Assembly (NCBI GenBank): GCA_038524795.1
Contig: JBCBIJ010000014.1
Location: 5,441 to 69,440 of the forward strand
Source of the DNA: Pseudomonadota bacterium
GTDB taxonomy: Bacteria; Pseudomonadota; Gammaproteobacteria; Steroidobacterales; Woeseiaceae
Length of the DNA: 64,000 nucleotides
Reading direction: 5' to 3'
Shown here: piece after piece, positions 39,430 through 53,826 of the stretch
Position numbering within the stretch: position 1 is the first letter of the stretch
Layout of the letters: the number at the start of each line of letters is the position of its first letter
The notes under the pieces: model-generated
What the model was told of the DNA's origin: nothing
Seen by the model: only the letters and a program-made list of their open reading frames with translations
The model's database searches: none
Made by a program: the position numbers and the translations under genes

Positions 39430-39459
39430 AAAAAGAGCCGGTGCCATTACGGCACCGGC
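39428..39459 (-). terminator. intrinsic terminator (minus-strand operon; possibly bidirectional)
   Basis: GCCGGTGCC-attac-GGCACCGGC is a 9-bp perfect stem (39437-39459). An A7 run at 39428-34 gives a U-tract on the minus strand. It sits between convergent genes. Confidence 0.75.
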
Positions 39460-39514: not shown

Positions 39515-41095
39515 TCAGACGAGCGGATTGAAGGCGGTCAGGCTGTCGCGCAGCTGTACGTTACCCAGGCCGTGGTTCGGGAACAGGACTTCGAAGTTGG
39601 CCTGTTCACCGTGAATGGCGAGGTAGTTGAGCACCACCGCTTCCACGAGCAAGTTCACGTTGTTGGCGATCGGGCTCGAGCCTGTTTCACCAGAACCATC
39701 CGGTCGGAAGTAACCGATCTGCTGGTGGTTTTCGGGGGGTAGGCTGTCGCCCGAGAACAGCTGCGGTCTGCCGTTCGGGTTGTAGACCAGGATGAACGAC
39801 GCCGCCGTACTCTGGTTGTCCGAGGCCCATTCAAGCTTGCCGCGACCGTCGACGGTATCGTCGATCATGCCGTTACTCGACAGCGAGCCGTCCGAGAACA
39901 CGTACATGAACAGCGGGACGCCACGGCGAGCCGCGTACTCGAGCGCGGCGCCCATGCAACGACCGGCGCGCAAGTCACGCACCTCACCGCGTGCACGACG
40001 ACCACCGTGGTAGTCGTAGCCGCCCATGGTGATGGTGCCGGCGCCCGCGTAACCATTGGCAACGAGCTTCATGACCGAGGCGGTCTTGCGGAATTCGCGG
40101 TCGTCGTCGTACTCGGCCTGCGAGAAGATGCCTGCGGGACCCACGAGGTCCTGGTCGAGCGACGGGTTGAGCTGCGAGGGGTCACCAAAGCGGTCGGCGA
40201 GGTCGGCTGACTTCAGGTAACCGCAAGCGACAAGGTCTTTGACCACGGCATCTGCGTCGATCTTGGTATTCACCTGACCGAGCTTCTGGTCACTGAGTCG
40301 GTACACAGACTCGAGCACGGCTACTGCGTCTTCCTGAGAGAGCAGGCCGACGAGTTTGCCCGTGTCTACAAGGCCTGTAACGTCGCCGGGGCGATCGACT
40401 TTCGAGGGCCGCAGGGCCGGATCGATCATTGCGGCGGGGGCCATCGAGTTACCACCGGACTCCGACGTACGCGATCCGATCAGATCGAGCAGCTCACCGC
40501 GTGCACCCGTTTTGGCGATGCCGTACATCGGGTTGTGCGGGTTGTTGCCCGTGTCGTTCTCCGAACGTGCCACGAGGATGGCCCCGTTGGTGTTCGCGAG
40601 CGTCGCCGGTGAGGCGCGCTCGAGGATCCCGCGTAGAAACGCGGAGTCCGAGTGGAACGCCAAACCCAGGTCCGTGTTGATGAAGTCGTTGGTACCCGTA
40701 TCGGGGTTGACCGCATCAGGTGTCTGGTCACCGGGCAGGCCGAGCTTGTTGTAGCCAGCCGTCGACAGGAAGTCCATCTGCCCGCCGGGACCGCCGACGA
40801 GCACGTTGGAGCCCGCCATGTTGGCGCCACCCGCGAGGTCGAAGCAGACGAACGGCACCTTGCCGGCGCCTGCCAGTTCGAGGCCGCAGCCCGCACGCAG
40901 CGGTTGCAGGTCAGATGAGAGCGCGGCGCGCGCTTCCATCGGATTGGCGAACAGGCTGAACAGGCCGCCCGACATGAGCGTCGATGTACCCGCCATCAGA
41001 CCCGTGGCGACAAACTCACGACGAGTCGTCGGGCGTTTGTGATCCGGGTGCAGAATCGGCGTATCCGGGTGCAGATTCTCTTTTCGCTTTGCCAT
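39515..41095 (-). CDS. Tat-signal periplasmic protein, DUF1501-like (unknown function)
   Basis: AGGAAC RBS and ATG at 41095. Twin-arginine TRREFVATGLMAG. FDLAGGANM, MGGYDYHGG and VFSDGSLSSNG are reminiscent of DUF1501 (GG-D, GG-D-H, SEFGR) motifs. From memory. Confidence 0.6.
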   Translation of the reverse strand: MAKRKENLHPDTPILHPDHKRPTTRREFVATGLMAGTSTLMSGGLFSLFANPMEARAALSSDLQPLRAGCGLELAGAGKVPFVCFDLAGGANMAGSNVLVGGPGGQMDFLSTAGYNKLGLPGDQTPDAVNPDTGTNDFINTDLGLAFHSDSAFLRGILERASPATLANTNGAILVARSENDTGNNPHNPMYGIAKTGARGELLDLIGSRTSESGGNSMAPAAMIDPALRPSKVDRPGDVTGLVDTGKLVGLLSQEDAVAVLESVYRLSDQKLGQVNTKIDADAVVKDLVACGYLKSADLADRFGDPSQLNPSLDQDLVGPAGIFSQAEYDDDREFRKTASVMKLVANGYAGAGTITMGGYDYHGGRRARGEVRDLRAGRCMGAALEYAARRGVPLFMYVFSDGSLSSNGMIDDTVDGRGKLEWASDNQSTAASFILVYNPNGRPQLFSGDSLPPENHQQIGYFRPDGSGETGSSPIANNVNLLVEAVVLNYLAIHGEQANFEVLFPNHGLGNVQLRDSLTAFNPLV

Positions 41096-41118
41096 GGTAT
41101 CGGTTCCTGAGTTGATTC

Positions 41119-43581
41119 TTACTGCACCAGCATCGAGGCGCTGCCCAACGCTGCTGCGCAGACGGCCGTGCCGACGGTTTCGGTGCGGTCTGCCGCACAG
41201 TTGTTGCCACACGCGGTGAGGCGGGTAATGAGCGCGTTCAGCTCGCCTTCCATATCGGCGCGCAGCGGCTCCGTGCCCAGATTGACGCCGGCCACGGCGT
41301 CAATGACCGGGTCGATCACCAGATCACGGCCCGCCTGGCTGGAGAACGCGCTGCCAGCCGGTGCATTGAAGTCCACGCCCGGGAAGAACGAGGCGCGCAA
41401 CGCCGTGTCCTGAACCAGCGCGTTGCAGTACTCCACCGCCATCTGCGAGATGCCGACCTGCTGTGAGGCCAGGAAGCCACCGAACAGCGGACTCGAAGGC
41501 ATCTGCTGACGCACGGCTTCGTAGGTCAGCATGACTTCGGGGTGCGTACGCGGCACGCCCGTCGCCTGCGCCATCGTTTCGGCAACTTCGTCGAAGATGC
41601 GCACGCCGATGTCGACCTGGTCCGGAATGTCCGCCGCGTCACCCGATGCCAGCGGCACGGGGTCGGTGCGAACGTTCACGTTGTCACCCAGCACGTCGAA
41701 GGTCAGGAAGAACTCGTCGGAGTCGGGGCCCTGTTCCTGCTGGAACACGGCACCGTACGGCGACAGCGGCTGACCGAGCTCGGCGAGCAGATCACTCGAG
41801 AGGCTCTCGTTGACCGTGCGGAAGGCCTGGCCAACCGGTGCTTCCACACCGTTCACGCCGACACGGATGCCCTGGACGGGGATGCCGTCCCAGGTGGCTG
41901 CGTTGTCGAGCGAGATGAAGTGCGGCGCGTTGAAGAGGTAGCTGTAGTTGTCGAACTGGGCGACTTCGAACAGCACGTAGGCCTCAGGCACATCCACAAG
42001 GTGCGAGACGCTGAACAGCAGGTAGAACTTCTCACCGACGCCGGCATCGAAGTTCTGCAGGATCTGTTCGGGCGTCAGCACGCGGTTGTGAATCGAGACG
42101 TAGCGGAACGTACCGGCGAACAGGCCGTCACTCGACACTTCGTTGCCGAGCACGAACGCGAACGTGTCGTCCCAGTCGGCGATGCTGCCACCACCGGTTT
42201 CATCGTTGATGTCCACGAGCTGGCCGTTGAGCCAGAGGCTGCGGCCATTGACGGGGTCCCAGTTGGCGACGACGTGCTGCAGCGTTGCCTGCAACAGTTC
42301 GTCGGCCGAAGGCGTTTGCAGCGCAGGCATACCGTTGCCGTCCGTGACGTCAGAGCGGTTTGCGAACGTGTAGTCGTAAAGCGTCTGGCCCAGCGTAAAA
42401 TTCCGCGCCGTCGGGCCGGCCGAGTAACTCACAATGCGCGACTCTTCCTGGACCACGTTGGCGGGCACAACCCAGGCTTCGACCGAGTACTCGCCCGTTG
42501 CCTTGATCATGTCATGCAGCTTCTTGCTGTCCGCGGTACGGCCCTGGGCCTTACCGTTGCGGATCTCGATGCCCCAGCCGCCGACCCAGCCGACGTCACC
42601 GGACAGCGTAAGGTCGAGCGCCGGCGACACGCCACTCGTGTCGTAAGCGATGAGGCCTTCGCCCGTCTTGAACTCATACGTCGCAATGGCGTTGGCTTCG
42701 TAACGGCTGCCGCCACTGGCGACGATGCCGTCAAGAATCGTGAGTGCCTTACTGACGGTCAGGCTCGGGTCCACCGCAGTCGGTGTGATCGAGTTGGCCA
42801 TGGCTTCGATGGCCGCCTGCATTTCATTCGCATCCGAGCCACAGTCGCTCCAGCAGTTGTGGAACTCGTTGCGCAGGCGCAGTACGAGGCGCGAGAGTGC
42901 CGGGTCGTTGAGCTTGATCTTCGGCTTGGCCGCGTCGTAGGCGACCTCGACATCAGGCTCAGCGAGGAACGGCGACTGCGCGAACTGAGCACCCGAGGTG
43001 TGGCAGCCCGTGCAGTACTGCGTGAGGATCGGGTGCACGGTGCTTGCGAACAAAGCGGGGTCACCCGGGAAGTTGCGGCTCGCGCCCGGATCCTTGATGA
43101 CCGGTGACTCGAGGTCGATCGTGCGGCCGCCGCCGGCAACGAGGTCGCCCGCCCAGCCAGAAATCCACGTTCCCATGAGGTCGCCACACACAGCGTCGCT
43201 ACCCGACCAGCAGTTGTGGCCACCGGCCACCTTGGTCGCGAGCAGCGAATCGTTCGGTGAGCTCAGGTCGACAGCCGTGTTGGCTGCCTCGTAAGCGAGG
43301 TTGATATCGTCATCCCGGGCGAAGACGGGCGCTTGCCCACCTTGGCCGTGGCAAGCGCCACAGCCCGCTTCGGACTGAATGTTGTCCCACAGGTTCAGCT
43401 TAAAGGACTGAACGTCTGCCGTGGCCGGTGCCGGGCCGTTGTAGCCCGACGTATCGGGTACGGACGTGACCGGGTTGACCTGCGTTTCAGCGCCGCCTCC
43501 CGAGCAGGCACTGATCACCGCTGAGGCGGCGAGAAGGCCGGTCAGGCGGCTGACGGTAATGGCTGTTTTATGCATCGTCAT
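41119..43581 (-). CDS. lipoprotein with two CxxCH (PSCyt-like) modules and a LamG-like jelly-roll domain
   Basis: GAGGA RBS and lipobox VISAC. CGACHGQGG and CTGCHTSG are each followed about 40 aa later by an HNCW motif. YSVEAWVVPAN...LQHVVANWDPVNGRSLWLNGQLV is the LamG_3 pattern. 820 aa. Confidence 0.65.
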   Translation of the reverse strand: MTMHKTAITVSRLTGLLAASAVISACSGGGAETQVNPVTSVPDTSGYNGPAPATADVQSFKLNLWDNIQSEAGCGACHGQGGQAPVFARDDDINLAYEAANTAVDLSSPNDSLLATKVAGGHNCWSGSDAVCGDLMGTWISGWAGDLVAGGGRTIDLESPVIKDPGASRNFPGDPALFASTVHPILTQYCTGCHTSGAQFAQSPFLAEPDVEVAYDAAKPKIKLNDPALSRLVLRLRNEFHNCWSDCGSDANEMQAAIEAMANSITPTAVDPSLTVSKALTILDGIVASGGSRYEANAIATYEFKTGEGLIAYDTSGVSPALDLTLSGDVGWVGGWGIEIRNGKAQGRTADSKKLHDMIKATGEYSVEAWVVPANVVQEESRIVSYSAGPTARNFTLGQTLYDYTFANRSDVTDGNGMPALQTPSADELLQATLQHVVANWDPVNGRSLWLNGQLVDINDETGGGSIADWDDTFAFVLGNEVSSDGLFAGTFRYVSIHNRVLTPEQILQNFDAGVGEKFYLLFSVSHLVDVPEAYVLFEVAQFDNYSYLFNAPHFISLDNAATWDGIPVQGIRVGVNGVEAPVGQAFRTVNESLSSDLLAELGQPLSPYGAVFQQEQGPDSDEFFLTFDVLGDNVNVRTDPVPLASGDAADIPDQVDIGVRIFDEVAETMAQATGVPRTHPEVMLTYEAVRQQMPSSPLFGGFLASQQVGISQMAVEYCNALVQDTALRASFFPGVDFNAPAGSAFSSQAGRDLVIDPVIDAVAGVNLGTEPLRADMEGELNALITRLTACGNNCAADRTETVGTAVCAAALGSASMLVQ

Positions 43582-43591
43582 CGTTCTGTCC

Positions 43592-44761
43592 TCAGTCGCC
43601 CATGCAGTAAGTGGCTGCTTCGGCGAAGGTGGTCTTCAACCGGTAGTTGCTGCCCACGAGCGACGCCGTCATGGCGTCGACCTGTGCGCGGTCCGCGGCA
43701 TCGCCGGGCTTACGCAGGCAGACGTTCTCGAACACCTTCTCGACCTGGCACTGGGCAAACGCCTGGCTGCCCGCGAGTTCGCGGCCCATCGACTTGGCGC
43801 CTTGGCCTGACCCCGTCTGTGCGGGGTCCCAGCCCAAAAGGGCGTTGCGACCGTCGCGCCAGTAGTTCGACCAGGCGTCGTCCGGCGTACGGAAGCCGAA
43901 CGGGAAGTTGGTGTCGTTGTTGAAGTACTTGGGATGAACGGCGCCGTCGGTGTATTCGATGCGGCCCGTCTCCTCGTTGTAGTTGTAGAAGGCAAACGCC
44001 TGCGCGAGCGGGTCCATCCCGCTGTGGCAGCTAATGCAGTTACCCAGGAACAAACGGCTGTCGCCACCCGGGCTGCGCGTGACGTCCTGGCGGATACGAT
44101 CCGGCGGACGGGTCACGTCAGCCACCTGCTCGAGGTCGCGGCAGAGGTGGTTCATGAGGGTGAAGCGCAGCATCGCGCGGTTCGTACCCGCGATGAAGAA
44201 GGCTTCAGCGGCGGCACGTGTGGTCATGACGCCGGCGGTCGCAGCGGCTGGCAGGTCGGTTTGTGCCGACTGCGTGGTCGCGACAAGGTTGGCCTGCAGG
44301 TCGATCGCGTTCTGCTCGAGCGCCTCGTAGTGATCGTTGTTGGTCATCGAGTAGCCGGGGATACCCAGGCCGGCTGCGCCAACATAGAGGTGATCGCCAA
44401 ACAGCACTTCGTTGAAGGGCACGTCATCGCGAATCATGCCGATTACCGTTGCCGTGTAGTCGTTGAGCGGCGCGAAGATATCGCCGTCACGATTCGTCCA
44501 GGGCGTCGCCCAGTTTTTCAACGTCACGCTGTAAAACGCGCTGTTCTGCATTGCCGTCTCGGCGGCTGCGATGGCGTTGCCGCCAGCGACCTGCGCCTCC
44601 ATGGCATCGAGTACGGCCGCCGTCGGGGGTACGCCCGCGAGTCGGTCGTGAATGCGCTTGGCCTGCTCGCGCGGACCCGCCCAGGCGCTGGCAATGGACA
44701 ATGCCAGCGTGAGTCCCGCTGCCCCAAGTCGTGCCGTTCGTGAAATCGTCTGTGTATTCAT
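43592..44761 (-). CDS. exported CxxCH protein, DUF1585/DUF1588-like (unknown function)
   Basis: ATG at 44761 with signal ending ASAWA. AGVMTTRAAAEAFF and NCISCHSGMDPLAQAF resemble the DUF1588/DUF1585 pattern. 389 aa. Confidence 0.6.
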   Translation of the reverse strand: MNTQTISRTARLGAAGLTLALSIASAWAGPREQAKRIHDRLAGVPPTAAVLDAMEAQVAGGNAIAAAETAMQNSAFYSVTLKNWATPWTNRDGDIFAPLNDYTATVIGMIRDDVPFNEVLFGDHLYVGAAGLGIPGYSMTNNDHYEALEQNAIDLQANLVATTQSAQTDLPAAATAGVMTTRAAAEAFFIAGTNRAMLRFTLMNHLCRDLEQVADVTRPPDRIRQDVTRSPGGDSRLFLGNCISCHSGMDPLAQAFAFYNYNEETGRIEYTDGAVHPKYFNNDTNFPFGFRTPDDAWSNYWRDGRNALLGWDPAQTGSGQGAKSMGRELAGSQAFAQCQVEKVFENVCLRKPGDAADRAQVDAMTASLVGSNYRLKTTFAEAATYCMGD

Positions 44762-45658
44762 TTCGACCCTGCTTTGACCGATCGCCGTGCCACATGGCAG
44801 CGGCGGTGACCTCGTTCGTTTTCCGTCTGCGGTGGTCTCAAGCACACCGCGTTGCGTCCCGTTCGCGAGCCCTGCCGGAGTCTGATCGCAGTTCACTGTC
44901 GTTGCAGTGATGGCGCTCACAATCCCGACGCTGGTGTGGCGTCGCACCCACATGTGGGCAGCTCTTGGCGGTTCGCTACACGGAAGTGGTTGCAATCGGC
45001 GTGCCAGCCCTGGGCGTTTCGGGCGTCTGAGGGCCGTGCGGCAGGAAAATCAACGGCTTAGCAAAAAAGGCCCCGTGTCGCAGGTGACGAGCATATGTAA
45101 AGCCGTTGTCGGGGGGTTGGGACAGTAGGGTGGCAGGGCGTAGTTAAATCATTGAAAAATAACAAATAAAAATTTGTCGCTGGAGTGAGACAGGGGTGCC
45201 GCGCATTGGCACCAGTGGTTTTGCCCGATGCGCGTGCGCCAGTTCACAAAAATGCGTCGTTCGCCGAAGACCGGTCTGTTTGGACACCAAATCAGGCTGA
45301 TTAGACGCAAGACCCCTAGTTCTCTTGGGTTTTGCGTGCGGGCGTATTTGCGGAATTCGGCGCTGTCGGACGCCGCCAGGTGTGCTGTCGTCTTTTCGAG
45401 ACATTACGAGTCACGACACCGATTTCTATACTCGCGCCGTTCCGAGGTTGCTGTGGCAGGTGCCCAGCTGGGTCGGAGCGCACAGTTCGGACCGATGCCA
45501 ACTGGCGCTGCGGGCGAACTGTGAAGTTGTTAACAGAATGCGCGACGGGCGATCGTCACCATGCCGTTACGTTCAATCGGCAGGTATGCGGTGCAGTCAG
45601 GTCTGGGACCTGGGCACGGCGAAGGCGACGCCTCGAAAAGCGCTTCGAGGTGCTCCCA

Positions 45659-48316
45659 ATGGACAAAGCGGTAACGGTGAAAACAAGTCATACAACGTGT
45701 GTCCGCGCGCTCGCACTCGTGCTGGCGCTCGCAACGGCGGCAGGCTGCAGTTCCTCCGGCAGCGAAGGCGACCAGGTCGGCTTCGGTGCGGGCCAGGCGC
45801 CTGATCCCGTCGCGCTCGAATTTCCGATTGTTTACGTCCAACGCCCGATTCCCCTCGATGACGACGGCGCGCTCGTGGAGGAAGACATCCGCGAGGTGCT
45901 GTCCTTCAACCCTGGTGCTGACCTGTTTTTCCGCGACCGCGCGTCGCCCAGTACGCCCGATGTGAATCTCACGGGCGACTTCACCATGGGTCTGGCCGAT
46001 ATTCGGGACGTCACCGTGTCGTTCGATGCGACAAAGGTGGCGTTCGCGATGCGTTACCCGTTCGATCCCGACGCCGACGACGAGGAGCAGGTGACGTGGA
46101 ACATCTGGGAGTACGACATCCCGAGCGACACGCTGCGGCGTGTGATCTCGTCTGACATCACGGCGGAAGCGGGCCACGACATCGCCCCGCAGTTCCTGCC
46201 CGACGGGCGACTCGTGTTCAGTTCGACGCGCCAGCGCCAGTCCGTGGCCATCCTGCTCGACGAGGGCAAGCCGCAGTTTCCGGCTTTCGACGGCGACGAC
46301 AATGAGCCCGGCTTCCTGCTGCACACAATGACGACCGACGGTACGGACATCGAACAGATCGGCTTCAACCAGAGCCATGAACTCAATCCGGTCGTACTCG
46401 ATGACGGCTCAGTCGTGTTTTCGCGTTGGGACAACGTCGGCGGCACCAACGAGTTCAACCTCTACAAGATGAATCCCGACGGCACAAACCTGCAGCTGCT
46501 GTACGGCGCGCAGAGCCATGATGTCGACAACGACGGTCAGCAGGAGCAGTTCATGCAGCCGCAGGTGCTGCCTGATGGCACGCTCATCTCGCTGCTCAAG
46601 CCGTTCACCGGGCCGACGACGGGCGGCGCACTCGTCGATATCGACGTGTCGACCTACCTTGAGAACACGCAGCCCAGTGTGAATAACACGGGTATGGCCG
46701 GCCCTGCCCAAACGCCGGCGACGATCAACAATGTGCTTGCCGCCGCCGACCAAATATCGCCGGGCGGCCGCTATCGCTCGGTGTATCCGCTGCGTGACGG
46801 CACGGACCGTCTGCTCGTAAGCTGGAGCCAGTGCCGCTTGCAAGACATCGACATGGTCATTCTTGCCTGCACACCTGACAACCTGGCTAACCCGGATCTC
46901 ACCCAGGCACCGCCGCTGTACGGCATCTGGATGTACGACCGCGAGCAGGAAACGCAGGCGCCCGTCGTGACGCCTGTCGAGGGCGTGATCTTCTCGGACA
47001 TCGTTGTGGCGGAGCCGCGCGATGTGCCGCTGGTGCTGCTCGCAGGTTCCAATACCTTCCTGCTCGATCCGGATATCGGTGACGAAGGTGTTGGTGTACT
47101 CAACATTCGCACCGTGTACGACGTTATGGGTGTCGACACAGCGCCAGGCGGCATCGACGTGCTCGCCGATCCTGCGCAAACCCTCGCTGCAGAGCGTCCC
47201 GCACGCTTCCTGCGACTCGAGAAGGCCGTTTCCATGCCCGACGAGGAACTCGTCGATGTGCCGGGATCAGCCTTTGGCGTCGGCGGTGGCCAGGGCTTCC
47301 GCGAAATTCTGGGTTACACGATGATCGAGCCCGATGGCTCGGTCATGGTCAAGGTGCCGGCCGACATCGCCTTCACCATGTCGATCACCGATGCCAACGG
47401 CCGCCGCATCTCGGCGCGTCATAACAACTGGCTACAGATTCGCCCCGGCGAAGAGCTCAAGTGCCAGGGCTGCCACGATGGCGGCAGCGGCCTGTCACAC
47501 GGTCGCGCCGATGCGTTTGCCTCGGCACACGACGGCGGGCAGAACATTAGCGTGCCATTTCCGAACACGGACCCTGCGCTGTTCATCGACACGCCGGGCG
47601 AAACGATGGCCGAGGTGCGCGCCCGCGTGTCGTGCTCAACGGATAACTGCTCGTCGCTGCAGCCGACCGTCGACGTGACCTATCGAGACGTTTGGACCGA
47701 TGAGGTCGCCGCCGGTCGCCAGGCCGATCCTGATATCGATCTGCGTTACGCCGACCTGCTGTCGCCACGTCCCGTGCAGCCGTCCTGCGAGCAGAATTGG
47801 ACAGCCAGCTGCCGCACGGTCATCCATTACGAGGATCACATTCACCCGCTGTGGTCGGTGCCGCGCGTGACACTCGACGGCATGGGTAACGTGGTCAGCG
47901 ACTTCACTTGCATTTCCTGCCACACGGATCGCGATGCCGCGAACCAGTTACAGGTGCCTGCCGGCCAGCTCAACCTGACGGACGGCCTCGCGCCTGAGGA
48001 GCAGGATCAGTTCGAGGCTTACCGCGAACTCGTGATTGCCGACGTCGAGGTCGAATTGAACATGGGTGCGCTGCAGCCGCGTCTCGTGCAGGTTGATACG
48101 GACCCGGTTACGGGCGATCCGATTTTCGCGACCGTTAATGTCCCGCCAAGCGCGCGCGGCGCGGGCGCGAATGCGTCACCTGTGTTCTTTAGCCGATTCG
48201 CGCCGGGCGGCACGCACGCCGGCTACCTCAACGAGGGTGAGTTGCGCCTGATTGCCGAGTGGCTCGACATCGGTGCGCAGTACTACAACGACCCATTCCG
48301 GGTACCCCAGGACTAA
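45659..48316 (+). CDS. lipoprotein with PD40/TolB-like beta-propeller repeats and C-terminal double CxxCH region
   Basis: Lipobox ATAAGC. Repeats are DIAPQFLPDGRLVFSSTR, LNPVVLDDGSVVFSRWD, YKMNPDGTNLQLLY and PQVLPDGTLISLL. Has KCQGCHDGG and TCISCHTDRD. The track ORF start at 45332 is rejected. Confidence 0.65.
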   Translation: MDKAVTVKTSHTTCVRALALVLALATAAGCSSSGSEGDQVGFGAGQAPDPVALEFPIVYVQRPIPLDDDGALVEEDIREVLSFNPGADLFFRDRASPSTPDVNLTGDFTMGLADIRDVTVSFDATKVAFAMRYPFDPDADDEEQVTWNIWEYDIPSDTLRRVISSDITAEAGHDIAPQFLPDGRLVFSSTRQRQSVAILLDEGKPQFPAFDGDDNEPGFLLHTMTTDGTDIEQIGFNQSHELNPVVLDDGSVVFSRWDNVGGTNEFNLYKMNPDGTNLQLLYGAQSHDVDNDGQQEQFMQPQVLPDGTLISLLKPFTGPTTGGALVDIDVSTYLENTQPSVNNTGMAGPAQTPATINNVLAAADQISPGGRYRSVYPLRDGTDRLLVSWSQCRLQDIDMVILACTPDNLANPDLTQAPPLYGIWMYDREQETQAPVVTPVEGVIFSDIVVAEPRDVPLVLLAGSNTFLLDPDIGDEGVGVLNIRTVYDVMGVDTAPGGIDVLADPAQTLAAERPARFLRLEKAVSMPDEELVDVPGSAFGVGGGQGFREILGYTMIEPDGSVMVKVPADIAFTMSITDANGRRISARHNNWLQIRPGEELKCQGCHDGGSGLSHGRADAFASAHDGGQNISVPFPNTDPALFIDTPGETMAEVRARVSCSTDNCSSLQPTVDVTYRDVWTDEVAAGRQADPDIDLRYADLLSPRPVQPSCEQNWTASCRTVIHYEDHIHPLWSVPRVTLDGMGNVVSDFTCISCHTDRDAANQLQVPAGQLNLTDGLAPEEQDQFEAYRELVIADVEVELNMGALQPRLVQVDTDPVTGDPIFATVNVPPSARGAGANASPVFFSRFAPGGTHAGYLNEGELRLIAEWLDIGAQYYNDPFRVPQD

Positions 48317-48330
48317 TCGAAGGACCGCCA

Positions 48331-49104
48331 GTGAGCCCACGCCTTAGTTCATGCATCTCCGCAGTATTCGCGATGGTCGTGGTGCTTGCCGGCACGCTGG
48401 CAGTCGCGCCTGCGGCATTCGCCGACGAGAAGCCGCTGCGTACGGTTGAAGTTGCGGATCCGTACCTCGAGATGCACACGGGGCCGGGCAAAGGGTATCC
48501 GATCACGAACGTCGTCGAACGCGGCGAGTCGGTACAGATCGTTCGCCGCAAGACGGACTGGTTCAAGGTGCGCACGGACCGCGGACGTGAAGGCTGGGTC
48601 AATATCGTGCAGCTTGAGCTGACGCTCGACGAATTCGGCGAGCGAACGGCCATCGAACGGATCGGTCGCGACGAGTTTCTCCAGACGCGCTGGGAAACAG
48701 GAATCATGACGGGCGACTTTGCGGGCTCCGACGCGCTTGCGGTCTATGGCGGCTACTCGATCAGCCGCAACCTGTCGGTGGAAGTTTGGGGCTCGCAACT
48801 TGTGGGCAACTTCTCGAATGGCTGGCTTGGCACTGTCAACGTCGTGCACGAAACGTTCCCTGAATGGCGCGTCTCGCCGTACTTCACGATCGGCACCGGC
48901 ATTGTCAGCACGTCGCCGAAGTCGACGCTCGTATCGCAGGAGGACCGCACCGACCAGGTGGCGCTCGTCGGCGGCGGGTTTCGCGCCTATGTCACGCGCC
49001 GCTTCGTGCTGCGCGCCGAATACAAAAGTTACGTGGTCCTCACGAGCCGCGACGAAAACGAGGAAGTGGAAGAATGGAAAGTCGGCTTCGGTTTCTTTTT
49101 CTGA
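48331..49104 (+). CDS. exported SH3b domain + outer-membrane beta-barrel protein
   Basis: AGGA lies 6 nt before the GTG at 48331. Signal ends AAFA. SH3b pattern YPITNVVERGESVQIVRRKTDWFKVRTDRGREGWV. Alternating beta-strands end in GFGFFF. Confidence 0.6.
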   Translation: MSPRLSSCISAVFAMVVVLAGTLAVAPAAFADEKPLRTVEVADPYLEMHTGPGKGYPITNVVERGESVQIVRRKTDWFKVRTDRGREGWVNIVQLELTLDEFGERTAIERIGRDEFLQTRWETGIMTGDFAGSDALAVYGGYSISRNLSVEVWGSQLVGNFSNGWLGTVNVVHETFPEWRVSPYFTIGTGIVSTSPKSTLVSQEDRTDQVALVGGGFRAYVTRRFVLRAEYKSYVVLTSRDENEEVEEWKVGFGFFF

Positions 49105-49751
49105 GCGTGACTGTACTGGTCATGCCGGCGCTGACGGGCTGCTCGTCGCTGCCGTTCTTCGGCCCGGGTGAAGACACCCAGGTCGCAGAGGCGCCCGAGC
49201 AGGTCATCGAGCCCGAGGTGGAGCGCCGCGAGATCGTGCAGCCGAGGATCGATACCGAGGACTTCGAAATTGGTGTGTACGCAGGCGGTATGAGTGTCGA
49301 AGACTTCGGCGTGAATGCGGTCTACGGCGCAACAATCGCCTACCACCTTAATGAAGCGCTGTTTGTCGAGGGCGCTATCGGTCGCACCGACACGGAAGAG
49401 ACGAGCTTCGAGCTACTCAGTGGTGCAGCGCAGATTCTCAACGACGACGAGCGCGAGTTCACCTACTACAACGCATCGATCGGATGGAACATCTTTCCGG
49501 GCGAGGCGTTTTTCGGCCGCGGTCGCGCGTTTAACCAGTCCTTCTACGTGATCGCGGGGCTGGGCAGTACGCGGTTTGGCGGCGACGACCAGTTCACGAT
49601 CAACGTCGGCGCTGGCTACCGCCTGTTGTTCAACGATGTCTTCGCGCTCCGTGTCGACTTTCGCGACCACGCCTTTGATACCGATCTGCTCGGTGAGAGC
49701 AAGACGGCACACAACCTGACCGGCCACGTCGGTTTCACGTTTTTCTTCTGA
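49074..49751 (+). CDS. outer-membrane beta-barrel lipoprotein (paralogous barrel)
   Basis: ATG at 49074 with lipobox LTGC. Alternating beta-strand pattern ending GFTFFF. Overlaps the previous gene by 31 nt. Confidence 0.6.
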   Translation: MESRLRFLFLSVTVLVMPALTGCSSLPFFGPGEDTQVAEAPEQVIEPEVERREIVQPRIDTEDFEIGVYAGGMSVEDFGVNAVYGATIAYHLNEALFVEGAIGRTDTEETSFELLSGAAQILNDDEREFTYYNASIGWNIFPGEAFFGRGRAFNQSFYVIAGLGSTRFGGDDQFTINVGAGYRLLFNDVFALRVDFRDHAFDTDLLGESKTAHNLTGHVGFTFFF

Positions 49752-49767: not shown

Positions 49768-50013
49768 ATGCACCGCAAAACCACACATCGAATCGCCCGC
49801 GTCGCACTGGCGCTGTGTCTCGTCACAGCCTCAGCCGCCTGCTCGAACATCGAACCCTGGGTCAAACCCTATGAGCGCGATCGCCTCGCTGATCCGATCA
49901 TGTTCCTTGACCACGACCCCGTATCGACCTCTTACATGTACCACGTGTTCGAGTCGCGCGAGGGCGCACGCGGCGCCGAGGGCGTCGTTGGCGGCGGCTG
50001 CGGCTGCAACTGA
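49768..50013 (+). CDS. DUF4266-like small lipoprotein
   Basis: 81 aa with lipobox SAAC. Has WVKPYERDRLADPIM and a C-terminal GGGCGCN tail. Family assignment is from memory. Confidence 0.6.
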   Translation: MHRKTTHRIARVALALCLVTASAACSNIEPWVKPYERDRLADPIMFLDHDPVSTSYMYHVFESREGARGAEGVVGGGCGCN

Positions 50014-50045: not shown

Positions 50046-51179
50046 ATGCGTAATCGCCTGCTGCTCATCATCGGACTCATCGCCACGTTGTGGACGGCGA
50101 CGGCTGAATCTGCCGTACTGCCCGACGAGCGTACCGACTTGCTCTACCACCGCTACGAAGGTGACAACATCACCATCGAAGGTCCTTCGGTGCTGATTCG
50201 CAAGAACGTTGGCAAGAGTGTTTCCGTTTCAGCGAACTACTACGTCGACATGATCACGAGTGCATCGATCGACGTTGTGACGACGGCGAGTCCGTACGAG
50301 GAAGAGCGCAAGCAGGGCTCCATCGGTGTCGACTACCTGCGTGGCGGCACGATGATGTCATTCGGCCTGACGCGCAGCACGGAGTCCGATTTCGAAGCGG
50401 AGACCTGGAGCCTCGCGGTCAGCCAAAACCTGTTTGGTGACCTCACCACGGTTACGATCGCCTACAGCCTCGGTGACGACGTTGTCGGCATGTCCACCGA
50501 TGAGACATTCGCGCGCGATGTGGCGCGCCAGGCCTACGGCATCGGCATCAGCCAGATCTTCACCAAGAACCTCATCATGGGCTTCAATTTCGAAGCCATT
50601 ACCGACGAGGGCTTCTTGCGTAACCCGTACCGCTCGGTGCGCTATCTCAACGACGATGGCACGAGCTTCAGCTACCAAAGCGAGCGTTACCCGAACACGC
50701 GAACGAGTTCGGCTGCCTCCATCTCGGGTCGCTACTACCTGCCGTACCGCGCTGCGATTAACGGCCAGATCCGTGGCTTCTCCGATACCTGGGGCATCAC
50801 GTCGATGACCTATGAGCTCGGGTACACGCACCCATGGCGCGACTTCACGTTCTCGACGCGCGTGCGCTACTACACCCAGGACCAGGCCGACTTCTATTCG
50901 GATCTGTTCCCGCGTTTTGACTTCCAGAACTTCCTGGCGCGCGATAAGGAGCTCTCGACCTTTACGAGCACCACGTTCCGCGCCGCCGTGGCCTGGGACA
51001 TCGGGACCGACGGATTTGGGCCGTTCAGCAAAGCGCGACTCACCGCATTCTGGGACCACATCCTTTTCGACTACGAGAACTTCAGCGACCTGCGTGTTGA
51101 GGGCGTACTGCCCGGCGAGGAGCCGAATTTCACATTCGAAGCGGACGTCGTCCAGCTGCTGTTCTCAGTCTGGTACTGA
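50046..51179 (+). CDS. DUF3570-like outer-membrane beta-barrel protein
   Basis: Signal peptide followed by LLYHRYEGDNITIEGPS and long alternating beta-strands ending LLFSVWY. It follows DUF4266, a pairing I recall from other genomes. Confidence 0.6.
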   Translation: MRNRLLLIIGLIATLWTATAESAVLPDERTDLLYHRYEGDNITIEGPSVLIRKNVGKSVSVSANYYVDMITSASIDVVTTASPYEEERKQGSIGVDYLRGGTMMSFGLTRSTESDFEAETWSLAVSQNLFGDLTTVTIAYSLGDDVVGMSTDETFARDVARQAYGIGISQIFTKNLIMGFNFEAITDEGFLRNPYRSVRYLNDDGTSFSYQSERYPNTRTSSAASISGRYYLPYRAAINGQIRGFSDTWGITSMTYELGYTHPWRDFTFSTRVRYYTQDQADFYSDLFPRFDFQNFLARDKELSTFTSTTFRAAVAWDIGTDGFGPFSKARLTAFWDHILFDYENFSDLRVEGVLPGEEPNFTFEADVVQLLFSVWY

Positions 51180-52598
51180 TCCTGGCAGTGGCGGTGGCCG
51201 CCACTCACCGATGAACGCTTCGCGTTGCAGCACCACAAGTTGCAGCAGCGTGGCGGCAGCTGTGTCGATCGTATCCCCCACCACGACATAGGCGGTGCCG
51301 TCGCCCTCACGCGGTAGCGCGTGAACCAGACGCGCCTCCTCAGTGGCCCGTTTCCGGACTCGTTCGAGGGCCGCGGCGGGAATCCAGTTCGACAGTCGGC
51401 TCAATGTATCGGGCGTTGCAATCGCCACTACGGGTAGTGCCGCGTGTCGTTTTGCTGCCGTGCGCATACCGTCGGCAGTCACGACATCAACAAACGCCGT
51501 GGCTGGCGTGAGCCGTTCCTGAGCCAGGCGCTGAGCAGGCCCGAGCTCAGGATCCGTCAATACGAACGCCACCGTGTGCAGCGTGCTATCGAGTCGCCCG
51601 CACTCGCTGCCCAGCGCGTCACGCGCTATGCGGACGTAATCGCGTACGAACGCGGCACCGAGCATGTTGCCGTCCACCAGCTGCCGTTCCATTCTCGTGC
51701 GCAGCGCCTTGGCGATGCGGTCAACGCGAATGTCTGCGTAATAGGATTCCGGTAGCGCTTCATAGCTTGCGAACGCTGCGGGACCCAGCAGGCGCGATTC
51801 GACGATGCCGTTGCCGATGGCGCTCGCCACGGCCTCGTCAAAGAAGTGGTAGGCGGTAACGGCGCAGCTTCCAGGCGCCGACAGAAAGGCGTCGACGAGT
51901 TCGCGACGCTGAGCTTCGGGCATGCCTTCCTGCCAGTGGTGCACAAACTCATGCACGATGACCGGCAGGCGGCTGTCCGCCGTATCCGCCAAGGGCGTTT
52001 CCACATACGCGACCCGCTGACCCAGTGTGGCCAGGCTGCCGCTGCGTGCGCCTTCGATGGCGATCAGCGAGACAGGCGGCAGGTCATCCGATGATTGCCC
52101 GAACAGCGCGGCGATTTGTGGCAACAGAGTTTCCAGCTCGATGCGTGACGCGGCCGTTTCGAGCCCGATGCGTTGGCGCGCGAGTTCGGGCGCAATCTCT
52201 CGCTGCCAGGGCCGCGATGTCCGCCAGAGCAGTTTGTCGATCAGTGCGCGCCGCGCCGGGGGCGGTAACGCCCGTCCCGGTGCGGCGCCCGCCCGGTGCC
52301 GCGATGAGACATCACGCAGATCCGATGCCGTTGGCAGGGCGAGGGCGCCGGAGTCTTGAGCCGGCAAGGCCGTCCGCGCCGATTCACGCCAGCGCTCGAC
52401 ATCGCCGGCGTCGATGTAGTCGGCGAGCGGCAGCTGGTCGCGCGTGCAGCGGACGAGCCCGGCCAGGCAGTCCAGCTCGTAGCTCAGGTTGTCGATGTGC
52501 GTATGGCGCACATGAATGGGCGACAGTGTGCGCGCCTGCAGGGGGACGCAGGCAAGCAGCATCGCTAGTGTCACGACTCTCCGCATGGCGCAGAGCAT
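51165..52598 (-). CDS. exported HExxH protein (putative zinc metallopeptidase), unknown family
   Basis: Signal MRRVVTLAMLLACVPLQA and VIVHEFVHHW. Start is 52598 or 52586. Its 3' end overlaps the convergent DUF3570 gene by 15 nt. Confidence 0.5.
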   Translation of the reverse strand: MLCAMRRVVTLAMLLACVPLQARTLSPIHVRHTHIDNLSYELDCLAGLVRCTRDQLPLADYIDAGDVERWRESARTALPAQDSGALALPTASDLRDVSSRHRAGAAPGRALPPPARRALIDKLLWRTSRPWQREIAPELARQRIGLETAASRIELETLLPQIAALFGQSSDDLPPVSLIAIEGARSGSLATLGQRVAYVETPLADTADSRLPVIVHEFVHHWQEGMPEAQRRELVDAFLSAPGSCAVTAYHFFDEAVASAIGNGIVESRLLGPAAFASYEALPESYYADIRVDRIAKALRTRMERQLVDGNMLGAAFVRDYVRIARDALGSECGRLDSTLHTVAFVLTDPELGPAQRLAQERLTPATAFVDVVTADGMRTAAKRHAALPVVAIATPDTLSRLSNWIPAAALERVRKRATEEARLVHALPREGDGTAYVVVGDTIDTAAATLLQLVVLQREAFIGEWRPPPLPGSVPD

Positions 52599-52636
52599 AG
52601 GGTGCGGACTCGCGATCGGCAATTTCGCGGGCCCAC

Positions 52637-53738: not shown

Positions 53739-53826
53739 GGGTGTACCTCGCAAGACGCTCGCGGTGCGTCTGGCAGTGGGGGTTGATCTTCGCGAGTTGG
53801 ACAATAGCACAGAAACCTATACATCG

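What the first reader, a model, noticed from the sequence alone, without database searches (positions are those of the whole stretch)
39515..44761. Minus-strand trio: repeated CxxCH...HNCW modules, LamG domain and a twin-arginine partner
In the 820-aa lipoprotein the two CxxCH motifs (CGACHGQGG and CTGCHTSG) are each followed ~40 residues later by an HNCW(S) motif (VAGGHNCWSGSDAVCGD and NEFHNCWSDCGSDANE). This indicates an internal duplication of a ~100-aa module with extra conserved Cys/His. A LamG-type jelly roll then follows, and then a long C-terminal region without recognisable motifs. The upstream 389-aa protein has one CxSCHxxxDP motif. The downstream 526-aa protein has a textbook TRREF Tat motif and GG-D/GG-DYH motifs. 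This suggests a folded, possibly cofactor-containing, alkaline-phosphatase-superfamily-like protein.
Basis: partly seen in the sequence, partly recalled or inferred. Interest (0 to 1): 0.6.

Follow-up and report, generated by a model that had tools for sequence, protein, structure and literature searches.

The report
Haem-protein trio with Tat-exported enzyme
Three co-transcribed cell-envelope genes (a one-haem-motif protein, a two-haem-motif sugar-binding lipoprotein, and a Tat-exported protein with a phosphatase-like fold that no database describes) form the conserved core of a widespread bacterial envelope system whose function is unknown.

Summary
On the minus strand, 389-aa (A), 820-aa (B) and 526-aa (C) genes lie 10 and 23 nt apart and end in a strong terminator.

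- **B** is a lipoprotein. Two ~100-aa modules (CxxCH, then HNCW...C 44-47 residues later) are true duplicates (hhalign 99.2%, E 3e-19). Their Cys and His are invariant in 68 orthologues and in relatives only about 30% identical. The module profile hits almost only class I c-type cytochromes in PDB. A LamG domain, a beta domain and a Cys-containing helical domain follow.
- **A** is a borderline PSCyt3/PSD2 (DUF1588/DUF1585) protein.
- **C** has an invariant twin-arginine and no Pfam or NCBIfam match. Its family has about 1,300 clusters at 50% identity. All top-50 Foldseek hits to its model are alkaline-phosphatase-superfamily enzymes, with weak E-values. Three collinear weak profile matches link it to DUF1501 (GGYDYH against GGWDTH).

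Distant lineages split B into two genes (order A, Bc, C, Bn), which defines a four-part core. In Gammaproteobacteria the trio sits opposite an HZS-alpha-like haem lipoprotein, two outer-membrane barrels, DUF4266 and DUF3570. It is often followed by ApbE, TlpA, TPR proteins and ExbB-ExbD-TonB; here those lie on another contig.

Verdict: a new proteobacterial variant of the enigmatic planctomycete cytochrome/DUF1501 modules. The substrate is unknown.

The parts
43592..44761 (-). Gene A (389 aa). Sec-signal protein with one CxxCH (C242, C245, H246; window 44024-44038). Distant PSCyt3/PSD2 (DUF1588/DUF1585) relative.
   Evidence: ORF. Pfam PSD2 E 6e-4, 19.9 bits against a cut-off of 25.8. 50 of 53 orthologues hit PSD2 and 26 of 53 hit PSCyt3. 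C207, C242, C245, H246, C338, C348 and C386 are invariant. About a third of database homologues carry PF07624, and one is named 'DUF1585 domain-containing protein'.
41119..43581 (-). Gene B (820 aa). Lipoprotein with lipobox ISA-C26, two tandem CxxCH...HNCW modules, LamG, a beta domain and a helical Cys domain.
   Evidence: AF2 model mean pLDDT 80.5. C26 is invariant in 56 of 56 orthologues.
43132..43440 (-). B module 1 (residues 48-150). Cytochrome-c-like; C74-x-x-C77-H78, H122-N-C124-W125, C132.
   Evidence: Invariant residues. Helices 55-69, 74-78, 93-100, 113-119 and 129-144. The module profile hits cytochromes c555, c552, c4 and CcoP.
42778..43104 (-). B module 2 (residues 160-268). Duplicate of module 1; C190-x-x-C193-H194, H241-N-C243-W244, C247.
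   Evidence: hhalign of module 1 against module 2: probability 99.2%, E 3.4e-19. These are the only two copies of the module in the whole genome.
42052..42699 (-). B LamG / concanavalin-like jelly roll (about residues 295-510).
   Evidence: Pfam Laminin_G_3 E 2e-16, found in 56 of 56 orthologues. Foldseek finds lectin-type jelly rolls.
41698..42027 (-). B second beta-rich domain (about residues 519-628).
   Evidence: AF2 strands 519-628, pLDDT mostly 70-94. No family match.
41122..41613 (-). B C-terminal helical domain (about residues 657-820) with the conserved pair C719/C808. It is a separate 220-240-aa lipoprotein gene ('Bc') in distant lineages.
   Evidence: BLASTP of standalone proteins from L102, L106, L101 and L105 to B residues 657-820, E 5e-20 to 2e-4. 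Alignment.
39515..41095 (-). Gene C (526 aa). Tat-signal protein (RR at window 41018-41023; signal about residues 1-57) with a predicted alkaline-phosphatase-superfamily-like fold. GGYDYH at window 40007-40024.
   Evidence: No Pfam or NCBIfam hit. The family has 1,324 50%-identity clusters. Invariant residues: R25, R26, G89, G90, D181, D361, Y362, H363, D402, G403, D426, Q459, G461, N490. AF2 pTM 0.79. Foldseek result. hhalign to DUF1501.
39437..39459 (-). Intrinsic terminator ending the A-B-C operon: 10-bp stem with 8 GC pairs, then a T-run.
   Evidence: It lies about 55 nt after the stop codon of C.
45659..48316 (+). Divergent partner D. Lipoprotein with a PD40 beta-propeller, an HZS_alpha middle domain and two invariant CxxCH motifs.
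   Evidence: Pfam HZS_alpha E 8e-14 and PD40. In the numbering of the 994-aa ORF (45332-48316, of which the annotated gene from 45659 is residues 110-994), C139, C711, C714, H715, C860, C863 and H864 are invariant in 44 orthologues. Syntenic in 64 of 80 loci.
48331..49751 (+). E and F: an SH3b plus outer-membrane beta-barrel protein, and a second beta-barrel lipoprotein.
   Evidence: Pfam SH3_3 and OMP_b-brl. Syntenic in 61 of 80 loci.
49768..50013 (+). G: DUF4266 lipoprotein with a C-terminal GGGCGCN tail.
   Evidence: Pfam DUF4266 E 3.5e-22. C25, C78 and C80 are invariant.
50046..51179 (+). H: DUF3570 protein with two conserved flavinylation-type motifs (residues 68-74 and 76-82).
   Evidence: Pfam DUF3570 E 4e-34. 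Motif conservation. DUF3570 was shown to be flavinylated by ApbE in PMC8238504.

Best explanation
The trio is one operon for three exported proteins that work together in the periplasm or at the outer membrane.

- A is a Sec-exported protein of the planctomycete PSCyt3/PSD2 type with one c-type haem site.
- B is a lipoprotein, probably outer-membrane anchored because Ser follows the lipid Cys.
  - It has two tandem class-I-cytochrome-c-like modules. Each most likely binds a covalent haem through CxxCH. The His of the invariant HNCW motif is the likely distal ligand. The HNCW Cys likely forms a disulfide with the Cys 4-8 residues later.
  - A LamG ligand- or glycan-binding domain, a beta domain and a disulfide-stabilised helical domain follow.
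- C is exported folded by the Tat pathway. It is a highly diverged alkaline-phosphatase-superfamily, DUF1501-like metalloenzyme. Its candidate metal and nucleophile residues are D86, D181/T182, D361, H363, D402 and D426.

Proposed mechanism: A and B pass electrons to or from the reaction carried out by C on a substrate held by the LamG domain of B.

In Gammaproteobacteria this core is linked to a flavin, thiol and haem relay (ApbE, TlpA, DUF4266, DUF3570 and the HZS-alpha-like haem lipoprotein D) and to a TonB-ExbBD energy module.

What is shown: gene structure, motif conservation, domain homology, synteny and gene fission. What is inferred: haem binding, ligation, metal site, electron flow and the existence of a complex. 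The substrate is unknown.
For: **Operon**
- Gaps of 10 and 23 nt between the genes, and a strong terminator after C.

**Conservation and synteny**
- Thousands of homologues exist for each protein.
- The order A-B-C is kept in all 80 species loci where the contig allows.
- C is 65-70% identical across gammaproteobacterial orders.
- C is found in 17 of 151 sampled gammaproteobacterial families.

**Haem modules**
- CxxCH, HNCW and the extra Cys are invariant.
- Duplication: E 3e-19.
- 16 of 18 PDB profile hits are class I cytochromes c.
- 46 of 56 orthologues give sub-threshold Cytochrome_CBB3 hits.
- The AF2 helix order fits class I cytochrome c.
- CcmE is present in the genome.

**Protein A**
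- 50 of 53 orthologues hit PSD2 and 26 of 53 hit PSCyt3.

**Protein C**
- RR is invariant in 70 of 70 family members.
- Its signal aligns to the Tat signals of NosZ and PaoA.
- TatC is present in the genome.
- All top-50 Foldseek hits are alkaline-phosphatase-superfamily members.
- Three collinear hhalign segments match DUF1501, including GGYDYH against GGWDTH.

**Functional linkage by gene fission**
- Distant loci L101, L102, L105 and L106 encode A, Bc, C and Bn as four genes.

**Wider system**
- DUF4266 and DUF3570 are adjacent.
- TlpA (47 of 63 loci), ApbE (15) and two TPR proteins (27-28) are found in the other loci, and ExbB-ExbD-ExbD (20-22 loci) with a TonB-like gene (15 loci) lie further downstream.
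- The same genes are clustered on contig C5 of the window's own genome.

**Literature analogue**
- PSCyt/LamG proteins pair with Tat-exported DUF1501 proteins, function unknown (PMC3542564; PMC5615132).
Against: - No cytochrome family reaches its curated threshold. Cytochrome_CBB3 scores 19 bits against a cut-off of 27. The best single-domain PDB hit has E 0.017.
- Foldseek E-values for C are 0.015 or weaker and TM-scores are about 0.2. No hit reaches E 0.001 or better.
- hhalign to DUF1501 gives only 46% probability for the best segment. Part of that segment is the Tat signal.
- No Pfam DUF1501 hit appears even in distant family members.
- No model coordinates were available, so haem-pocket geometry and disulfides could not be checked.
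- PSCyt-type domains have never been shown experimentally to bind haem.
- In distant lineages the core lacks the flavin, TonB and D-H genes nearby, so those links may be lineage-specific.
Confidence: 0.6

Rival explanations
1. The CxxCH...HNCW modules do not bind haem. They are cytochrome-derived structural or metal-binding (Zn, Cu or disulfide) domains. B would then be a ligand-binding scaffold or sensor for enzyme C, not an electron carrier.
For: - All cytochrome family matches are below threshold.
- Each module has two extra invariant Cys.
- The planctomycete PSCyt domains they resemble in context have no biochemical proof of haem binding (PMC3542564; PMC5615132).
Against: - The complete haem c signature is invariant over very divergent sequences: CxxCH plus a His 44-47 residues downstream, where class I cytochromes place the distal ligand.
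- PDB profile hits are nearly all genuine cytochromes aligned over the N-terminal helix and CxxCH.
- The Ccm maturation system is present.
Confidence: 0.12
2. C is not a catalytic alkaline-phosphatase-superfamily enzyme. It is either a non-enzymatic folded Tat passenger (a binding or assembly factor) or an enzyme with a different, new fold. On this reading its resemblance to DUF1501 and phosphatases is convergent or an artefact of weak matches.
For: - Foldseek gives no hit with E of 0.001 or better, and TM-scores are about 0.2.
- No Pfam, NCBIfam or PDB sequence hit.
- hhalign probability is 46% or lower.
- The DUF1501 'DH' motif (D389, H390) has no clear counterpart in C.
Against: - All 50 best structural neighbours come from a single superfamily.
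- The three profile segments are collinear. They place beta1-GG and beta-GG(Y/W)D(Y/T)H in register.
- Acidic and His residues stay invariant (D181, D361, H363, D402, D426) at only 28% mean column identity, as expected for a metal active site.
- 65-70% identity across orders indicates strong functional constraint.
Confidence: 0.15
3. Sox-like carrier chemistry. The Gly-rich C-terminal Cys arm of the DUF4266 lipoprotein (GGGCGCN) carries a substrate as a thiol adduct. The haem proteins oxidise or conjugate it, possibly with His/Cys-ligated haem through HNCW. The sulfatase- or phosphatase-fold protein C hydrolyses the product. This parallels SoxY, SoxAX and SoxB.
For: - The DUF4266 tail GGGCGCN is invariant.
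- A Cys lies next to the putative distal His in each module.
- C is Tat-exported and hydrolase-like.
- Hosts include the sulfur oxidisers Thiodiazotropha and Sedimenticola, and Woeseiaceae.
- The resemblance to Sox rests on my own knowledge of that system. It was not tested here.
Against: - The distant split loci have the A/B/C core without DUF4266 nearby.
- Many hosts are ordinary heterotrophs such as Alteromonadaceae, Microbulbifer and Colwellia.
- The published context for DUF4266 and DUF3570 is a DsbD/TlpA/ApbE electron relay, not a carrier pathway.
- No sequence similarity to any Sox protein was seen.
Confidence: 0.07

Closest known systems
PVC-type DUF1501 (PF07394) Tat proteins paired with PSCyt1/PSCyt2/PSD1 proteins that often carry Laminin_G_3 (Kamneva et al. 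2012, PMC3542564; He et al. 2017, PMC5615132)
   Same: - Adjacent genes for a CxxCH protein with a LamG domain and a Tat-signal protein of about 400-500 aa.
- The Tat protein has a beta-strand followed by GG, and a GG-aromatic-D-x-H motif.
- Both are predicted to be periplasmic.
- In both cases the function is unknown.
   Different: - C does not match PF07394. It shows only weak collinear profile similarity.
- B has no PSCyt1, PSCyt2 or PSD1 domain. Instead it carries a distinct HNCW cytochrome-like module in tandem and a different C-terminal helical domain.
- The host is a gammaproteobacterium that also has two canonical DUF1501 genes elsewhere.
PSD3/PSD5/PSD4-PSCyt3-PSD2 proteins (DUF1587/1595/1592/1588/1585) paired with DUF1552 (HXXSHH)
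   Same: A carries the C..CH..DP motif and a C-terminal region that hits PSCyt3 and PSD2. It lies in an operon with a Tat-signal protein.
   Different: - A is only 389 aa and lacks PSD3, PSD4 and PSD5.
- Its PSD2 score is below the cut-off in this genome (23.1 against 25.8 bits).
- The genome has no DUF1552.
- The Tat partner is C.
Class I c-type cytochromes (Aquifex c555, Hydrogenobacter c552, c4, CcoP)
   Same: The N-terminal helix, CxxCH, about 100-aa size, helix order and a distal ligand position 44-47 residues after the proximal His.
   Different: - The distal residue is His within HNCW rather than Met.
- Each module has an extra Cys pair.
- Scores are below family thresholds.
- The modules are fused to LamG in a lipoprotein.
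ApbE-associated DUF3570 / DUF4266 / thioredoxin-like (DsbD-linked) flavinylation system (Meheust et al. 2021, PMC8238504)
   Same: - DUF4266 and DUF3570 are encoded in the divergent operon.
- TlpA and ApbE are adjacent in many other genomes and are clustered on contig C5 here.
   Different: - That paper does not describe the A/B/C trio, the HZS-alpha-like lipoprotein or the TonB module.
- Here the flavinylation motifs read [ST][ST]AS instead of [ST]GA[ST].
Alkaline-phosphatase superfamily enzymes (sulfatases, cofactor-independent phosphoglycerate mutase, alkaline phosphatase, MCR-1/EptA)
   Same: These are the predicted structural neighbours of the core fold. C has an Asp after beta1 and a D-x-H motif after a central strand.
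   Different: - No sequence-level match.
- No sulfatase C/S-x-P-x-R signature.
- C has a large helical insertion at residues 236-345.
- The nucleophile is uncertain (T/S182?).

Membership tests
c-type cytochrome, class I (B modules 1 and 2) | CxxCH haem-attachment motif, conserved | tested here: met
   C74/C77/H78 and C190/C193/H194 are 99-100% conserved in 68 orthologues and in distant split homologues.
c-type cytochrome, class I (B modules 1 and 2) | Distal axial ligand (Met or His) about 40-60 residues after CxxCH, before the C-terminal helix | tested here: met
   Invariant H122 and H241 lie 44 and 47 residues after the proximal His and just before helices 129-144 and 247-263. Their role as ligand is inferred.
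c-type cytochrome, class I (B modules 1 and 2) | Match to a curated cytochrome c family above threshold | tested here: not met
   Cytochrome_CBB3 scores 19 bits against a cut-off of 27, and the best orthologue has E 6.4e-5. The PDB profile search gives 16 of 18 hits to cytochromes, but the best single-domain E is 0.017.
c-type cytochrome, class I (B modules 1 and 2) | Covalently bound haem | not testable with these tools
   This needs a haem stain, spectroscopy or mass spectrometry. CcmE is present in the genome.
Laminin_G_3 (PF13385) | Pfam match above the gathering score | tested here: met
   60.9 bits against a cut-off of 27.6, E 2e-16. Found in 56 of 56 orthologues.
PSCyt3-PSD2 (DUF1588-DUF1585) proteins (gene A) | PSD2 and PSCyt3 Pfam matches above the gathering scores | tested here: inconclusive
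   - The window protein scores 19.9-23.1 bits against a cut-off of 25.8.
- 50 of 53 orthologues hit PSD2 (best E 1.5e-6).
- 26 of 53 hit PSCyt3 (best E 0.006).
- About a third of database homologues carry a precomputed PF07624 hit.
PSCyt3-PSD2 (DUF1588-DUF1585) proteins (gene A) | Adjacent DUF1552 (HXXSHH) partner | tested here: not met
   No PF07586 match anywhere in the genome.
DUF1501 (PF07394) (gene C) | Pfam match | tested here: not met
   No hit for C or for 10 distant family members at E up to 1. The same genome's true DUF1501 proteins score 106-122 bits.
DUF1501 (PF07394) (gene C) | Twin-arginine signal, beta1 followed by GG-x-D, and GG[WF]D[TH]H | tested here: inconclusive
   - The Tat signal is met.
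- GGAN stands in place of GGxD, although D86 precedes it.
- GGYDYH aligns with GGWDTH.
- hhalign gives three collinear segments, E 2e-4, 0.019 and 0.39.
Alkaline-phosphatase superfamily (gene C) | Core alpha/beta fold | tested here: inconclusive
   The AF2 model has pTM 0.79. All top-50 Foldseek PDB hits are superfamily members, but E is 0.015-0.2 and TM-scores are about 0.2.
Alkaline-phosphatase superfamily (gene C) | Conserved metal ligands (Asp after beta1; D-x-H) and a nucleophile | tested here: inconclusive
   D/E86 is conserved in 69 of 70 members. D361, H363, D181, D402 and D426 are conserved in 70 of 70. The candidate nucleophile T/S182 is conserved in 63 of 70. The assignment to sites is inferred because no coordinates were available.
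Tat substrate (gene C) | S/T-R-R-x-F-L-K motif with a hydrophobic region, and Tat machinery present | tested here: met
   The sequence is T-T-R-R-E-F-V followed by a hydrophobic stretch and ARA|A. RR is invariant in 70 of 70 members. The signal aligns with the NosZ and PaoA signals. TatC is present. Actual Tat dependence cannot be tested here.
DUF3570/DUF4266/TlpA/ApbE flavinylation system (context genes G and H) | DUF3570 and DUF4266 Pfam matches, and co-located TlpA-like and ApbE genes | tested here: met
   - DUF4266 E 3.5e-22 and DUF3570 E 4e-34.
- TlpA and ApbE are not in the window. They are clustered on contig C5 of the same genome.
- They are adjacent to the locus in 47 and 15 of 63 other genomes respectively.

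The most novel reading that the evidence does not exclude
The trio is the catalytic head of a previously undescribed machine in the outer part of the cell envelope, built from about 17 genes. In it, a TonB-ExbBD motor, a DsbD/TlpA thiol relay, an ApbE-flavinylated DUF3570 barrel, a DUF4266 carrier thiol and five c-type haems (in A, B and D) feed a Tat-delivered enzyme with an alkaline-phosphatase-type fold.

That enzyme would perform a new extracytoplasmic chemistry. One possibility is Sox-like oxidation and hydrolysis of a carrier-bound substrate. Another is redox-coupled modification of an envelope or environmental glycan held by the LamG domain.
Probability: 0.15. Interest if true: 0.85.

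Novelty: new variant of a known kind. Interest (0 to 1): 0.6.

Why it matters
- **An undescribed large family.** Protein C has about 1,300 clusters at 50% identity. It is 65-70% identical across gammaproteobacterial orders, yet has no Pfam or NCBIfam model and no solved structure. NCBI sometimes mislabels it 'GspF'.
- **An old puzzle made tractable.** The cytochrome/DUF1501 and DUF1552 gene pairs of Planctomycetes and Verrucomicrobia have had no known function since 2004. The trio is a proteobacterial counterpart found in cultivable Microbulbifer, Paraglaciecola, Alteromonas, Colwellia and Lentisalinibacter strains. The question therefore becomes testable by genetics.
- **A defined minimal system.** The gene-fission pattern (A, Bc, C, Bn) defines the minimal functional unit.
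- **A biochemical handle.** The HNCW module is a distinct, strictly conserved cytochrome-like domain.
- **A new link between systems.** The association with the ApbE/DUF3570 flavinylation system and with TonB-ExbBD connects three poorly understood envelope systems into one testable unit.

Tried and rejected
- **PDB sequence searches with A, B and C as single sequences:** only noise.
- **PDB search with the diverse C profile:** only the Tat signals of NosZ and PaoA.
- **hhalign of the shallow C alignment against single DUF1501 proteins:** only the Tat signal aligned. A deeper alignment was needed.
- **Foldseek with the whole B model:** it saw only the LamG jelly roll, as lectin-like domains of neurotoxin binding regions and trans-sialidases. 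This is a generic fold match and says nothing about the cytochrome-like modules.
- **DUF1552 as the partner family:** absent from the genome.
- **Pfam on distant C relatives and on extra genes in the split loci:** nothing informative, apart from a CARME-type methyltransferase and a peptidase.
- **The 485-aa ORF at 51165-52622 and the upstream transporter, SRPBCC and TonB-C genes as system members:** rejected. They are not conserved outside the genus.
- **Literature searches** for DUF names, HNCW and HZS_alpha: no functional study of this module.

Full report
**1. What is in the sequence**

- A: 43592-44761, 389 aa.
- B: 41119-43581, 820 aa.
- C: 39515-41095, 526 aa from the ATG. The longest ORF begins at an upstream GTG.

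The gaps between the genes are 10 and 23 nt. A 10-bp GC-rich hairpin with a T-run lies about 55 nt after C. The three genes are therefore almost certainly one operon.

The window belongs to a complete 3.65-Mb genome assembled from a metagenome (a MAG), recorded as 'Pseudomonadota bacterium J06632_16'. Its nearest named relatives are Woeseiaceae.

**2. Protein B**

- *Lipoprotein.* The lipobox is ISA-C26, and C26 is invariant in 56 of 56 orthologues.
- *The quoted motifs are all there.* In module 1 these are C74-G-A-C77-H78, then H122-N-C124-W125 and C132. In module 2 they are C190-T-G-C193-H194, then H241-N-C243-W244 and C247.
- *Conservation.* In 68 orthologues from 80 species loci (45-76% identity), every one of these residues is 99-100% conserved.
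- *Duplication.* Profile-profile comparison of the two modules gives 99.2% probability and E 3.4e-19 over 87 columns. A reversed control gives E 0.02. The internal duplication is real.
- *Cytochrome-like nature.*
  - A joint module profile searched against PDB returns 18 hits at E up to 10. Sixteen are class I c-type cytochromes: Aquifex c555, Hydrogenobacter c552, flavocytochrome c, c4 and CcoP. They align over the N-terminal helix, CxxCH and the following loop. The best single-domain E-value is 0.017.
  - 46 of 56 orthologues give sub-threshold Cytochrome_CBB3 hits.
- *Model.* The AF2 model has mean pLDDT 80.5. Each module shows the helix order of class I cytochromes, with HNCW just before the C-terminal helix.
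- *Uniqueness.* The module occurs nowhere else in this genome.
- *Remaining domains.* After the modules come a Laminin_G_3 domain (E 2e-16), a second beta domain (519-628) and a helical domain (657-820). The helical domain has a conserved C719/C808 pair.
- *Foldseek limit.* Foldseek on the whole chain detects only the jelly roll.

**3. Protein A**

- It has a Sec-type signal and an invariant C242-x-x-C245-H246 within C..CH..DP.
- Fifty of 53 orthologues hit Pfam PSD2 (DUF1585). Twenty-six hit PSCyt3 (DUF1588) at the CxxCH, and six hit PSCyt2.
- The window protein is just under the PSD2 cut-off: 23.1 against 25.8 bits.
- About a third of database homologues carry PF07624, and NCBI names one of them a DUF1585 protein.
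- A is therefore a short, borderline member of the planctomycete-type cytochrome-like families.

**4. Protein C**

- *No known family.* It has no Pfam or NCBIfam hit and no PDB sequence relative.
- *A large family.* An exhaustive HMMER search finds 1,324 50%-identity clusters at E 1e-3 or better, and 342 at E 1e-30 or better. Members only 33-35% identical also lack any Pfam hit.
- *Invariant residues.* Seventy diverse members have a mean column identity of 28%. The invariant residues are R25, R26, G89, G90, D181, D361, Y362, H363, D402, G403, D426, Q459, G461 and N490. D/E86 is conserved in 69 of 70.
- *Tat signal.* The profile's only PDB matches are the Tat signals of NosZ and PaoA. TatC is present in the genome.
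- *Fold.* The AF2 model has pTM 0.79 and no Foldseek hit at E 0.001 or better. However, all 50 best hits belong to the alkaline-phosphatase superfamily: cofactor-independent phosphoglycerate mutase, sulfatases, alkaline phosphatases, MCR-1 and ENPP.
- *Link to DUF1501.*
  - The genome's two genuine DUF1501 proteins, and those of relatives, carry a Tat signal, a beta-strand followed by GGxD, and GG[WF]D[TH]H.
  - hhalign of the two family alignments gives three collinear local matches. The first covers the Tat signal, beta1 and GG (E 2e-4). The second covers LGLP (E 0.39). The third covers a helix, a strand and GGYDYH against GGWDTH (E 0.019).
- I read C as a very divergent DUF1501-like member of the alkaline-phosphatase superfamily, with moderate confidence.

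**5. Conservation and gene fission**

- C-type genes were found in 587 or more species genomes. They occur in 17 of 151 evenly sampled gammaproteobacterial families.
- In all 80 fetched loci the order A-B-C is kept wherever the contig allows.
- Distant C relatives (30-35% identical) sit in loci with a split architecture:
  - A (41-45% identical);
  - then a 220-240-aa lipoprotein matching B residues 657-820;
  - then C;
  - then a ~460-aa lipoprotein with a single CxxCH...HNCW...C module plus a beta domain.
- One locus (L104) has a fused B with one module.
- In all these distant modules the signature C..CH / H-N-C / C is retained. The Trp of HNCW is Gly in L104.
- This fission-fusion pattern is strong genomic evidence that A, the cytochrome module, the helical domain and C act together.

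**6. Wider system**

- *The divergent operon.* It lies across a ~900-bp intergenic region and is syntenic in almost every locus. It encodes:
  - D, a PD40 propeller lipoprotein with an HZS_alpha domain and two invariant CxxCH;
  - two outer-membrane barrel proteins, one with SH3b;
  - a DUF4266 lipoprotein ending in GGGCGCN;
  - a DUF3570 protein.
- *What is known about these families.* DUF3570 is a proven ApbE flavinylation substrate. It is normally found with DUF4266, a TlpA-like redoxin and DsbD (PMC8238504).
- *The extended operon in other genomes.* There the A-B-C operon continues with the following genes:

| Gene | Loci (of 63 with more than 3 kb of DNA downstream of C) |
|---|---|
| Zn-ribbon methyltransferase | 9 |
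| ApbE | 15 |
| TlpA with CGPC (either here or after DUF3570) | 47 |
| Two large TPR proteins | 27-28 |

A TPR lipoprotein (26 loci), ExbB and the first ExbD (22 loci each), the second ExbD (20 loci) and a TonB-like gene (15 loci) follow further downstream; these four counts are over all 80 fetched loci.

- *The window's own genome.* The same genes lie together on contig C5 in the order ApbE, TlpA, TPR, TPR, TPR lipoprotein, ExbB, ExbD, ExbD, TonB-like. ApbE, TlpA and the two large TPR proteins are 41-49% identical to the locus-linked versions. The methyltransferase lies on contig C3.
- *Limit.* The split loci of distant lineages lack these accessory genes nearby. The trio, or quartet, is therefore an autonomous core that Gammaproteobacteria have coupled to a flavin, thiol, haem and TonB apparatus.

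**7. Mechanism (inferred)**

- A and the haem modules of B act as one-electron carriers.
- The most economical reading of HNCW...C is a distal His ligand with an adjacent disulfide. His/Cys ligation cannot be excluded.
- LamG binds the substrate or a partner. C, folded and perhaps metal-loaded in the cytoplasm, performs the chemistry.
- The direction of electron flow and the substrate are unknown.
- The families of the superfamily that act in the envelope (phosphoethanolamine and phosphoglycerol transferases, sulfatases) suggest ester chemistry on a glycan-like molecule.
- A Sox-like carrier-thiol scheme is a speculative alternative.

**8. Comparison with known systems and novelty**

- The closest described systems are the PVC modules: DUF1501 with PSCyt1/PSCyt2/PSD1 (with or without Laminin_G_3), and DUF1552 with PSCyt3/PSD proteins. 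[quoted passage not shown]
- The trio shares their logic but fails the Pfam membership tests for DUF1501, PSCyt1/2 and PSD1. Only A is a borderline PSD2/PSCyt3 member.
- I found no paper describing the HNCW module, the C family or this locus.
- Earlier AI notes of this scan on other genomes reached similar readings. I used them only as leads and re-derived the points cited here.
- I class the finding as a new variant of a known but functionally unexplained kind of system. It is of above-average interest because it is widespread, strongly conserved, lacking any family model, and present in cultivable strains.

Noticed in passing
Own genome contig C5:16086-27000 (L112) and C3:201330-202664 (L113); other loci L007-L073 downstream of C: - In many other genomes, genes directly follow the A-B-C operon: methyltransferase, ApbE, TlpA (CGPC), two large TPR proteins, a TPR lipoprotein, ExbB, ExbD, ExbD and a TonB-like gene.
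- In this genome they are absent from the window but clustered on contig C5. The methyltransferase is on C3.
- The full system is therefore about 17 genes, split over three loci here.
   Followed up: partly
L101, L102, L105, L106 (distant relatives of C); L104: - The split architecture is A, then Bc (220-240-aa helical lipoprotein), then C, then Bn (~460-aa lipoprotein with one CxxCH...HNCW module).
- A CARME-type SAM methyltransferase (PF07942) lies nearby in 3 of 5 loci. In L105 it has a sub-threshold PqqD-like C-terminus.
- L104 sits in an assembly with more than a million contigs, so it is probably a bacterial contaminant of a eukaryote assembly.
   Followed up: partly
window 41039-41041 (His19 of C): His19 lies six residues before the twin arginines, in the part of the signal that is normally cleaved off and variable. 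It is conserved in 68 of 70 family members that are otherwise only about 30% identical. It may be a contact for a dedicated Tat proofreading chaperone.
   Followed up: no
window 50247-50297 (H, DUF3570 residues 68-84): The two flavinylation-type motifs read D-x-[VI]-[ST]-[SG]-A-S and D-V-[VI]-T-T-A-S. The final A-S is invariant in 32 orthologues. The published consensus [ST]GA[ST] has Gly where this subfamily mostly has Ser or Thr.
   Followed up: partly
window 39515-41095 homologues in public databases: NCBI names several C homologues 'general secretion pathway protein GspF'. No similarity to GspF/T2SSF was detected, so this looks like a propagated misannotation.
   Followed up: partly
window 44762-45658: A ~900-bp non-coding region separates the divergent A-B-C and D-H operons. 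No sigma-70-like promoter matched the simple scan. A hairpin with a T-run lies at 45195-45213 on the plus strand.
   Followed up: no
window 45659-48316 (D): The HZS_alpha-domain propeller lipoprotein has two invariant CxxCH and further invariant His (H331, H349, H697, H723, H962). A 2025 survey reports that such HZS_alpha-domain proteins are widespread and none has an experimentally confirmed function (PMC12758564).
   Followed up: partly
Own genome contig C6:44776-46020 and 53714-54511 (L082, L081): Two canonical DUF1501 Tat proteins (GGFDTH and GGWDTH) are encoded elsewhere in the same genome, each preceded by a ~400-aa ORF. The DUF1501-like C is therefore an additional, separate lineage and not a replacement.
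   Followed up: partly
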